NCBI RefSeq assembly: GCF_009914755.1
Contig: NC_060938.1
Direction: 5' to 3' (one strand)
DNA from: the human T2T-CHM13v2.0 reference genome, Homo sapiens
DNA: 64,000 nucleotides
The notes under the pieces are model-generated. The model searched no databases. It saw only the letters and a program-made list of their open reading frames with translations, and had not been told where the DNA came from. Of this stretch, positions 14,063 to 17,000 are shown one piece after another. The position numbers were made by a program, and so were the translations under genes. The number at the start of each line of letters is the position of its first letter. Positions within the stretch are counted from its first letter, which is position 1.

Positions 14063-17000
14063 TCCTGAAGGAAGCACTAAACATGGAAAGGAACAACCAG
14101 TACCAGCCACTGCAAAAACATGTCAAATTGTAAAGATCTTTGAGGCTAGGAAGAAACTGCATCAACTAACGAGCAAAATAACCAGCTAACATCATAATGA
14201 CAGGATCAAATTCACACATAACAATATTAATCTTAAATGTAAATGGGCTAAATGCTCCGATTAAAAGACACAGACTGGTGAATTGGATAAAGAGTCAAGA
14301 CCCACCAGTGTGCCGTATTCAGGAGACCCAACTCATGTGCAGAGACACACATAGGCTCAAAATAAAGGGATGGAGGAATATTTACCAAGCAAATGGAAAA
14401 CAAAAAAGCAGGGGTTGCAATCCTAGTCTCTGATAAAAGAGACTTTAAACCAACAAAGATCAAAAGAGACAAAGAAAGCCATTACATAGTGGTAAAGGGA
14501 TCAGTGCAACAAGAAGAGCTAACTATCCTAAATATACATGCACCCAATACAAGAGCATCCAGATTCATAAAGCAAGTCCTTAGAGACCTACAAAGAGACT
14601 TAGACTCCCACACAATAATAATGGGAGACTTTAACACACCACTGTCAACATTAGACAGATCAATGAGACAGAAAGTTAACAAGGATATCCAGGAATTGAA
14701 CTCAGCTCTGCACCAAGCAGACCTAATAGATATCTACAGAACTCTCCACCCCAAATCAACAGAATATACCTTCTTCTCAGCACCACATCACACTTATTCC
14801 AAAGTTGACCACATAGTTGGAAGTAAAGCACTCCTCAGCAAATGTAAAAGAATAGAAATTATAACAAACTGTCTCTCAGACCACAGTGCAATCAAACTAG
14901 AACTCAGGATTAAGAAACTCACTCAAAACTGCTCAACTACATGGAAACTGAACAACCTGCTGCTGAATGACTACTGGGTACATAACGAAATGAAGGCAGA
15001 AATAAAGATGTTCTTTGAAACCAATGAGAACAAAGACACAACATACCAGAATCTCTGGGACACATTTAAAGCAGTGTGTAGGGGGAAATTTATAGCACTA
15101 AATGCCCACAAGAGAAAGCAGGAAAGATCTAAAATTGACACCCTAACATCACAATTAAAAGAACTAGAGAAGCAAGAGCAAACACATTCAAAAGCTAGCA
15201 GAAGGCAAGAAATAACTAAGATCAGAGCAGAACTGAAGGAGAGAGAGACACAAAAAACCCTTCAAAAAATCAATGAATCCAGGAGCTGGTTTTTTGAAAA
15301 GATCAACAAAATTGATAGACTGCTAGCAAGACTAATAAAGAAGAAAAGAGAGAAGAATCAAATAGATGCAATAAAAAATGATAAAGGGGATATCACCACC
15401 GATCCCACAGAAATAAAAACTACCATCAGAGAATACTATAAACACCTCGACACAAATAAACTAGAAAATCTAGAAGAAACGGATAAATTCCTGGACACAT
15501 ACACCCTCCCAAGACTAACCCAGGAAGAAGTTGAATCTCTGATAGACCAATAACAGGTTCTGAAATTGAGGCAATAGTTAATAGCCTACCAACCAAAAAA
15601 AGTCCAGGACCAGATAGATTCACAGCCGAATTCTACTGGAGCTGGTACCATTCCTTCTGAAACTATTCCAATCAATGGAAAAAGAGGGAATCCTCCCTAA
15701 TTCATTTTATGAGGCCAACATGATCCTGATACCAAAGCCTGGCAGAGACACAACGAAAAAAGGATTTTAGACTAATGTCCCTGATGAACATCGATGCAAA
15801 AATCCTCAATAAAATCCTGGCAAATCAAATCCAGCAGCACATCAAAAAGCTTATCCATCATGATCAAGTTGGCTTCATCCCTGGGATGCAATGCTGGTTC
15901 AACATACACAAATCAATAAATATAATCCAGCTTATAAACAGAACCAAAGACAAAAACCACTTGATTATCTCAATAGATGCGGAAAAGGCCTTTGACAAAA
16001 TTCAACAGCCCTTCATGCTAAAAACTCTCAATAAATTAGGTATTGATGGGATGTATCTCAAAATAATAAGACCTATTTATGACAAACCCACAGCCAATAT
16101 CATACTGAATGGGCAAAAACTGGAAGCATTCCCTTTGAAAACTGGCACAAGACAGGGATGCCCTCTCTCACCACTCCTATTCAACATAGTGTTGGAAGTT
16201 CTGGCCGGGGCAATCAGGCAAGAGAAAGAAATAAAGGGTATTCAGTTAGGAAAAGAGGAAGTCAAATTGTCCCTGTTTGCAGATGACATGATTGTATATT
16301 TAGAAAACCCCATTGTCTCAGCCCAAAATCTCCTTAAGCTGATAAGCAACTTCAGCAAAGTCTCAGGATACAAAATCAATGTACAAAAATCACAAGCATT
16401 CTTATACACCAACAACAGACAAACAGAGAGCCAAATCATGAGTGAACTCACATTCACAATTGCTTCAAAGAGAATAAAATACCTAGGAATCCAACTTACA
16501 AGGCATGTGAAGGACCTCTTCAAGGAGAACTACAAACCACTGCTCAATGAAATAAAAGAGGACACAAACAAATGGAAGAACATTCCATGCTCATGGGTAG
16601 GAAGAATCAATATCGTGAAAATGGCCATACTGCTCAAGGTAATTTGTAGATTCAATGCCATCCCCATCAAGCTACCAATGACTTTCTTCACGGAATTGGA
16701 AAAAGCTACTTTAAAGTTCATATGGAACCAAAAAAGAGCCCACATTGCCAAGTCATTCCTAAGCCAAAAGAACAAAGCTGGAGGCATCATGCTACCTGAC
16801 TTCAAACTATACTACAAGGCTACAGTAAGCAAAACAGCATGGTACTGGTACCAAAACAGAGATATAGACCAATGGAACAGAATAGAGCCCCCGGAAATAA
16901 TACCACACATCTACAACCATCTGATCTTTGACAAACCTGACAAAAACAAGAAATGGGGAAAGAATTCCCTATTTAACAAATGGTGCTGGGAAAACTGGCT

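What the first reader, a model, noticed from the sequence alone, without database searches (positions are those of the whole stretch)
14063..15719. ~1.65 kb apparently identical inverted arm shared by two old, otherwise diverged L1s
Seen: position x in the plus L1 mirrors 24529-x in the minus L1 (8810-10466). The ORF translations 14197-14433 and 14393-15553 are identical to 10096-10332 and 8976-10136, including disabling indels such as the deletion at ttctactggagctggtacc. The first mismatch I noticed is at 15720/8809, and mismatches are frequent beyond ~15855. Further out, both copies still share unusual variants: atgaaaattaaatgctca at 17453 and ~7072, and the gcaaaataa stop at 17242 and ~7287. 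Inference: repeated gene conversion of different ages has homogenised the arms of a palindrome with a 3.6 kb spacer, which would keep the locus prone to re-inversion. Identity was spot-checked, not fully aligned.
Basis: partly seen in the sequence, partly recalled or inferred. Interest (0 to 1): 0.72.

Follow-up and report, generated by a model that had tools for sequence, protein, structure and literature searches.

The report
Flipped segment between two homogenised L1s
Two old, dead LINE-1 jumping-gene copies on human chromosome 14 lie back to back, share a near-perfect 1.8-kb stretch, and the 3.6 kb between them is flipped relative to its ancestral order, likely because recombination between the copies overwrote one with the other within the last few million years; this is a known kind of event, at a place we did not find in the inversion lists we could read.

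Summary
Confirmed and extended. The arms 8810-10466 and 14063-15719 are exactly complementary for 1,657 bp; unrelated copies differ by about 6% there. The homogenised tract really runs to 15854, with one CpG mismatch. The target-site duplications of the two L1s are cross-paired, and 9 of 11 copies of the older host L1 read through the spacer backwards. So these are two independent insertions that recombined; the last homogenisation is younger than about 0.9-2.6 Myr (assumed rates). Beyond about 16070 the arms are at background divergence and share only a few rare alleles. One, a 3-bp insertion, occurs genome-wide in only three L1s: both arms and a copy about 420 kb away. A fourth copy 51 kb away shares alleles of the tract. 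The locus is absent from three inversion lists. It is a new member of a known class (L1-mediated inversion with conversion); the local, long-range allele sharing is the more surprising part. No ape or population sequence could be tested.

The parts
14063..15854 (+). Right homogenised arm (exact to 15719; one CpG mismatch at 15720; identical again to 15854). L1 ORF1 end and first part of ORF2, disabled. Shares rare alleles with copy E outside the window (chr14:16,813,369-16,819,481, minus strand, 51 kb left of the left element)
   Evidence: copy E:
8675..10466 (-). Left homogenised arm (exact part 8810-10466)
6315..12424 (-). Full-length-looking L1 (A). Chimeric: its 3' end and left junction belong to the originally 5'-truncated insertion, its 5' 1,958 bp (10467-12424) to the originally full-length insertion
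   Evidence: cross-paired target-site duplications; geometry
14063..18211 (+). Truncated-looking L1 (B). Chimeric: its 5' junction belongs to the truncated insertion, its 3' end and right junction to the full-length insertion
10467..14062 (.). 3,596-bp segment between the arms, inverted relative to the ancestral order: 1,958 bp of L1 5' end plus 1,638 bp of older spacer
14047..14063 (+). Target-site duplication 1, 5' copy; pairs (15 of 17) with the sequence after the LEFT poly(A) tail, about 6300-6316 on the minus strand
12426..12433 (-). Target-site duplication 2, 5' copy; pairs (8 of 8) with the sequence after the RIGHT poly(A) tail, 18212-18219 on the plus strand
4425..6316 (+). Older host L1, left part; continues in reverse through 14063-13849 and 12584-12426, then forward from 18212
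13849..14063 (-). Older host L1 piece inside the flipped segment
12426..12584 (-). Older host L1 piece inside the flipped segment
12585..13848 (.). Insert that interrupts the host L1 in the spacer; looks like an LTR (MaLR-type) element (name recalled, not tested)
   Evidence: gap in the host matches; sequence
18212..19693 (+). Older host L1, right part (interrupted at about 18373-18652 by an Alu-like insert)
15855..16071 (+). Possible older, partly decayed homogenised stretch (6 differences, about 14 expected)
17399..17493 (+). 95-bp identical patch (mirror 7047-7141) carrying a rare substitution at 17435 and an in-frame 3-bp insertion at about 17460; both also in copy D outside the window (chr14:16,454,117-16,459,460, minus strand, about 420 kb left, own intact 14-bp target-site duplication)

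Best explanation
Two L1 copies inserted independently, back to back and 1.64 kb apart, inside an older L1, and the 3.6-kb segment between their shared parts is now flipped; homologous recombination between them likely did this and likely overwrote about 1.8 kb of one arm with the other in the same event, probably within the last 1-2.6 million years. Shown: identity, cross-paired target-site duplications, reversed host order, background divergence of the outer arms. Inferred: a break in one arm was repaired on the inverted partner, the exchange ran inward to the end of homology (the 5' truncation point, 14063) and outward to about 15854, and it was resolved as a crossover. Two homology-guided template switches at those two points give the same product. 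Donor weakly inferred to be the full-length copy. Earlier, smaller exchanges between the arms and with L1s 51 kb and about 420 kb away likely left the scattered shared alleles.
For: 0 of 1,657 and 1 of 1,792 mismatches against about 6% background. Each 5' junction pairs with the opposite element's tail: 15 of 17 and 8 of 8; the same-element pairings gave only A-rich 7-8 base matches. 9 of 11 host-L1 copies show the full order left flank, spacer reversed, right flank; the other 2 show the first junction reversed and end early; none is collinear. Sharp change point at 15853 and background beyond 16072. Tract begins at the first base of homology. No overlapping entry among the 18 chr14 rows of a 44-sample table on CHM13 or, at the estimated hg38 place, among 612 candidates, which fits a fixed rather than a toggling inversion. 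Donor hints: allele 15961 is in B and E but not A, and allele 10705 is shared by E and the part 5' of the truncation.
Against: Nothing here dates the flip itself; only the last homogenisation is bounded, under assumed rates of 0.5-1e-9 per site per year. The 15855-16071 stretch looks like the eroded edge of an older tract, which favours repeated events. A 1.8-kb tract is long: mammalian tracts are said to be rarely over 1 kb (PMC3961182 passage). The donor call is weak: 5' of the truncation E differs by 5.5%, and 2 of 15 controls are as close or closer. The 28 controls were the best hits to arm B, not a random sample. The 8-bp duplication is short and A-rich; its weight comes from the host continuity.
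Confidence: 0.55

Rival explanations
1. Long-running concerted evolution with toggling: an older event first homogenised the inner arms; conversion has kept them identical since, and the middle has flipped an odd number of times, possibly independently in several apes.
For: Graded edge: 0, then 1 in 135 bp, then 6 in 217 bp, then background. Older shared alleles at 15932, 16634, 16829, 17211, 17435 and the 17460 insertion: 4 exclusive substitutions in 16001-18200 against a mean of 0.35 and a maximum of 3 in 378 control pairs. 11 of 16 repeat-flanked inversions studied showed recurrence within or between species (PMC3961182 passage).
Against: No polymorphic call found at this place. The outer shared alleles are only weakly enriched in long identical runs (3 of 6, P = 0.075), and 65% of 378 control pairs have a run of 95 bp or more. 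Single-control pairings with arm A reach 3 exclusive substitutions.
Confidence: 0.33
2. The scattered alleles shared by A, B, D and E reflect descent from one small L1 source lineage whose copies all landed within 430 kb (local retrotransposition), not conversion. This concerns the outer alleles only; the 1.8-kb tract still needs recombination.
For: The 3-bp insertion is in frame in ORF2, so an active source could have carried it. Alleles 14141 and 14731 are in all four copies. If E is a chimera (no target-site duplication), most sharing fits one tree.
Against: Shared alleles include an ORF2 stop (17248, A and B) and a 1-bp frameshift (about 15541; A, B, E), which an active source is unlikely to pass on. 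E groups with the tract (support 0.945) but not with the outer arms. In the outer-arm tree A and B pair with support 0.145 only, and D does not join them.
Confidence: 0.12
3. Assembly or polishing artefact: reads from one arm overwrote the other in T2T-CHM13.
For: Perfect identity of two old repeats is what over-polishing makes; no independent assembly or raw reads could be examined here.
Against: The whole inverted repeat is 11.9 kb, within long-read length (general knowledge of the assembly, recalled). The edge is graded and broken by one CpG transition, with rare shared alleles on both sides of it (15677; 15722-15825). The inversion evidence does not depend on arm identity.
Confidence: 0.04
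4. The truncated L1 is an inverted duplication of the full-length one, not a separate insertion.
For: 96% overall identity over 4,165 bp.
Against: Each element has its own target-site duplication and poly(A) tail, at host positions 1.64 kb apart; no flanking DNA is duplicated; outer arms differ at background level.
Confidence: 0.02

Closest known systems
Retrotransposon recombination-mediated inversions, RRMI (Lee et al. 2008, PMC2603318; passages and the chr14 rows of its supplement seen)
   Same: Inverted L1PA-type pair, chimeric elements, target-site duplications that no longer match within an element; this is that paper's own test of the derived state.
   Different: Not among its 3 chr14 loci. 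The words 'gene conversion' do not occur in its main text; here 1.8 kb of arm is homogenised. Species state not tested here.
Repeat-flanked polymorphic inversions HsInv0341 (6.2-kb L1PA3 arms) and HsInv0347 (1.6-kb THE1C arms, 7.1 kb, chr14) (Aguado et al. 2014, PMC3961182; table and discussion passages seen)
   Same: Small inversion bounded by inverted transposon copies with about 1.6 kb or more of repeat arm.
   Different: Those segregate in people. No polymorphic call was found for this locus, and here only the inner 43% of each arm is homogenised.
Non-allelic gene conversion between neighbouring transposons (review PMC6598467, passages seen; it cites Aleshin and Zhi 2010, which was not held)
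   Same: Neighbouring copies share otherwise private alleles; the rate is reported as raised within 10 kb for Alu.
   Different: L1 rather than Alu; sharing also at 51-62 kb and 416-427 kb, well beyond the quoted range.
Arm-to-arm conversion in sex-chromosome palindromes (recalled; only a search listing seen)
   Same: Inverted arms kept alike by conversion.
   Different: Autosomal, 1.8-kb arms made of two separate retrotransposon insertions, no genes, not a segmental duplication.

Membership tests
Retrotransposon recombination-mediated inversion (L1-L1) | Two same-family elements in opposite orientation bound the segment | tested here: met
Retrotransposon recombination-mediated inversion (L1-L1) | Target-site duplications mismatched within elements and matched across them | tested here: met
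   15 of 17 and 8 of 8, cross-paired
Retrotransposon recombination-mediated inversion (L1-L1) | Segment reversed relative to the ancestral state | tested here: met
   9 of 11 host copies give the full reversed order, 2 partial, 0 collinear (paralogues used as proxy)
Retrotransposon recombination-mediated inversion (L1-L1) | Orientation differs between species or individuals | not testable with these tools
   no ape or second human sequence available
Non-allelic gene conversion tract | Bounded tract where paralogue identity far exceeds flanks and family background | tested here: met
Non-allelic gene conversion tract | Shared derived, otherwise private alleles inside the tract | tested here: met
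   26 exclusive substitutions and a 13-bp deletion
Non-allelic gene conversion tract | Paralogue identity exceeds orthologue identity | not testable with these tools
   needs apes; at a recalled 1.2% human-chimp divergence about 20 differences would be expected, 0 seen
Recurrent (toggling) polymorphic inversion | Both orientations segregate, with shared haplotypes | tested here: inconclusive
   no overlapping entry in PMC10150506 Table S1 or PMC13629690 Table S1; absence from lists is not a genotype
Segmental or inverted duplication | One insertion copied with its flank; one target site | tested here: not met
   two target-site duplications, no shared flank
L1PA5/L1PA6 subfamily | Diagnostic positions against a repeat library | not testable with these tools
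   no repeat library; the label is recalled, and consistent with 6-7% pairwise divergence from the closest copies

The most novel reading that the evidence does not exclude
This is an uncatalogued, fixed, human-lineage inversion, and it is one node of a cis network in 14q11.2 in which at least four dead L1 copies have exchanged sequence over 3.6 kb, 51-62 kb and about 420 kb. If general, L1 copies are not independent after insertion even hundreds of kb apart, and rare shared alleles record long-range germline contacts (or, more radically, local L1 hopping).
Probability: 0.35. Interest if true: 0.65.

Novelty: new member of a known kind. Interest (0 to 1): 0.45.

Why it matters
It is a clean case in which one reference sequence alone shows an inversion, its ancestral order and its conversion tract. 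Such pairs slip through screens: they are under 10 kb (the ape survey curated larger events), are made of high-copy repeat, and were not among the inverted pairs chosen for the 612-candidate screen. The flip turned an L1 5' end (promoter region) to face OR6J1, about 34 kb away on the same strand; any effect is untested, and RefSeq lists no functional element here. The wider point is the allele sharing with L1s 51 and 420 kb away. If it holds genome-wide it would bias L1 dating and phylogeny, and it offers a simple test: are rare L1 alleles shared in cis more than in trans, and over what distance?

Tried and rejected
Stop at 17248 as a private marker: rejected, 3 of 28 controls carry it. Allele 14141 sits at a CpG, and the genome-wide search over it did not return D or E among 40 scored: weak marker. 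Alleles 14489 and 14552 each occur singly in other copies picked for closeness (2 and 8 of 20; both together in 0 of 20), so neither is private alone. Long identical runs in the outer arms as proof of conversion: rejected, 65% of 378 control pairs have as long a run; enrichment of shared alleles in long runs P = 0.075. Other pattern hits for the 3-bp insertion: 9 of the 21 hits at 2-3 mismatches were fetched (the 8 reading ATT and 1 reading AAT); none lies in a matching L1 context; the other 12 read A-runs or AGA/AAG there and were not fetched. A larger inversion joining D to the window: rejected, D has its own intact duplication. E as inversion partner of A or B: no cross-paired duplication and no shared flank; its partner, if any, was not sought further. 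An age gradient across the outer arm: the rise from 4% to 12% tracks the family background. A second control set drawn with arm A as query was not obtained, so all controls are biased toward B. Literature: searches returned nothing on this locus (22, 49 and 74 returned no papers). Porubsky 2022 (Cell) and Aleshin and Zhi 2010 were not held; the ape-genome supplement (PMC12058530) was unreadable; the 1,019-genome supplement (PMC12350158) was cut when stored and the places shown held no chr14 row. Any of these may list the locus.

Full report
Observation. The arms 8810-10466 and 14063-15719 are exact reverse complements for 1,657 bp, inside a 4,165-bp inverted alignment of 96.0% identity (6315-10466 against 14063-18211). 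The first mismatch is a CpG transition at 15720 and the next is at 15855. Twenty-eight other L1 copies, the best genome hits to the right arm, differ from the tract by 5.9% on average and 4.8% at least; about 95-100 mismatches were expected and none is seen. The tract carries 26 substitutions found in none of the controls, against at most 2 in 300 control pairs, and a 13-bp deletion matched in full only by the two arms among 40 hits scored. The best single change point is 15853, so the homogenised length is about 1.79 kb.

The locus is already inverted. The 17 bases ending at the truncated 5' end (14063) match, 15 of 17, the bases after the left poly(A) tail. Eight bases just before the full-length 5' end (12424) match those after the right tail. 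Each element's two ends therefore belong to different insertions. Independently, both L1s sit in an older L1. Of 11 other copies of that host, 9 align in the order left flank forward to about 6310, 14063-13849 reversed, 12584-12426 reversed, then 18212 forward; 2 show the first junction and stop early; none is collinear. The ancestral layout was thus a 4.15-kb truncated L1 on the left, a 1,638-bp spacer, and a 6.1-kb full-length L1 on the right. The flip moved the spacer and 1,958 bp of L1 5' end, 3,596 bp in all.

Outer arms. From 16072 to 18200 the arms differ at 138 places, against 119-143 expected; the apparent gradient follows the family background. Between 15855 and 16071 there are 6 differences for about 14 expected (P about 0.01, boundaries chosen after looking). 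Four exclusive substitutions lie in 16001-18200, against a mean of 0.35 and a maximum of 3 among 378 control pairs, though pairings of arm A with single controls reach 3. The stop at 17248 is in 3 of 28 controls. The 3-bp insertion at about 17460 is in 0 of 28.

Two more copies share the alleles. A genome-wide pattern search for the insertion returned, at up to one mismatch, three places: both arms and an L1 (D) at chr14:16,454,860, 416-427 kb to the left. At up to three mismatches there were 21 further hits (reversed-pattern control 4); the 9 fetched are not in a matching L1 context. D has its own 14-bp target-site duplication, is at background divergence overall, and matches both arms for about 70 bp around the insertion and allele 17435. 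The chance that one random copy lies this close is about 3e-4. By gene order D probably lies in the T-cell receptor alpha region (recalled, not checked). A full-length copy E, 51 kb left of arm A, was the second-best hit other than the query itself when the whole left element was searched (chance of any of 38 hits within 60 kb about 1.5e-3). E differs from the tract by 81 of 1,788 (4.5%), below all 28 controls (minimum 5.2%), but from the outer arms at background. It shares alleles 14489, 14552, 14731, 15816 and a 1-bp deletion at about 15541; it is the only one of 38 non-arm hits scored that has the deleted length, though 1 of 28 controls also has the deletion. It groups with the tract in a tree (support 0.945) and elsewhere in the outer-arm tree. 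Its shared alleles lie in runs of 15-64 bp (median at random 27), so that exchange is likely old. No target-site duplication was found for E. E was selected by a search that favours shared words, so the count of shared alleles is inflated; its position is not.

Mechanism. Shown: two insertions, a flipped middle, a bounded near-identical tract starting at the first base of homology. Inferred: repair of a break on the inverted partner, with exchange running to the heterology edge at 14063 and out to about 15854, resolved as a crossover; or two homology-guided template switches at those points. One event then explains both flip and identity (0.55). With assumed rates of 0.5-1e-9 per site per year the last homogenisation is younger than 0.9-1.8 Myr (0 in 1,657) or 1.3-2.6 Myr (1 in 1,792) at 95%, so after the human-chimpanzee split. 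The rival (0.33) is long-running conversion with toggling, favoured by the graded edge and the older shared alleles. The full-length copy is the likelier donor, on two alleles only (10705, 15961), and the divergence test for that was inconclusive.

What is known. The class is established: Lee et al. 2008 (PMC2603318; passages) use exactly this duplication mismatch to call L1-mediated inversions; their 3 chr14 loci are elsewhere. Aguado et al. 2014 (PMC3961182; passages) list polymorphic inversions with transposon arms and report recurrence in 11 of 16. None of the 18 chr14 rows of Table S1 in Porubsky et al. 2023 (PMC10150506; supplement rows) overlaps CHM13 16.870-16.882 Mb. In the 612-candidate table of PMC13629690 (passages and supplement searches) no chr14 row begins with 2266, 2267 or 2268; the hg38 place is my estimate, from an offset of about 5.80 Mb read from a pair 12 Mb away. 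The ape survey (PMC12058530; passages) curated events over 10 kb and its supplement was unreadable. The supplement of PMC12350158 was cut, and Porubsky 2022 was not held. A search for OR6J1 with inversion gave no paper. So 'uncatalogued' holds only for three lists. Conversion between neighbouring Alus is reported as raised within 10 kb (PMC6598467; passage); the six-term search for an L1 counterpart returned nothing. Subfamily labels (L1PA5/6-like pair, older L1 host, MaLR-type insert) are recalled and come from no call.

Verdict. Real feature; new member of a known kind; interest 0.45. The inversion and tract are secure from the sequence. Timing, donor and present-day mobility need ape and population data. 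The sharing with copies 51 and 420 kb away is the part a specialist would look at twice.

Noticed in passing
window 19790-19975 (+): 5' fragment of a processed RPL9 (uL6) pseudogene, not in the gene table given: 30 residues match 60S ribosomal protein L9 at E 2e-09. It ends in an A-run where a third L1 begins; its continuation was not found right after that L1.
   Followed up: partly
window about 19990-23509 (+): A third, older L1 (86% to the left element over 2.7 kb; 91% to the arms over 1.27 kb), with a 5' end but cut off at 23509 without a 3' end.
   Followed up: no
window 41432-49856: Diverged 75-77-bp satellite array of about 8.4 kb: about 48 copies in one orientation (41451-45049) abutting blocks in the opposite orientation (45050-47290, 47602-49854), with a short insert at 47250-47605. 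Resembles SATR1/SATR2 (recalled). Mostly not masked in the table given.
   Followed up: no
L045 (G000:C14:16813369-16819481) and L067: Copy E has no target-site duplication even after allowing for an Alu inserted at its tail; it may be a chimera from a separate L1-L1 deletion or inversion near OR6J1.
   Followed up: partly
L043-L044 (G000:C14:16454117-16459460): Copy D has an internal deletion of about 790 bp in its 5' part (jump from window-equivalent 10772 to 11561) and shares allele 17285 with E and 17566 with arm A.
   Followed up: partly
window 26027-27861 (-): Fragment of a much older L1 3' region, about 75% identical to the pair.
   Followed up: no
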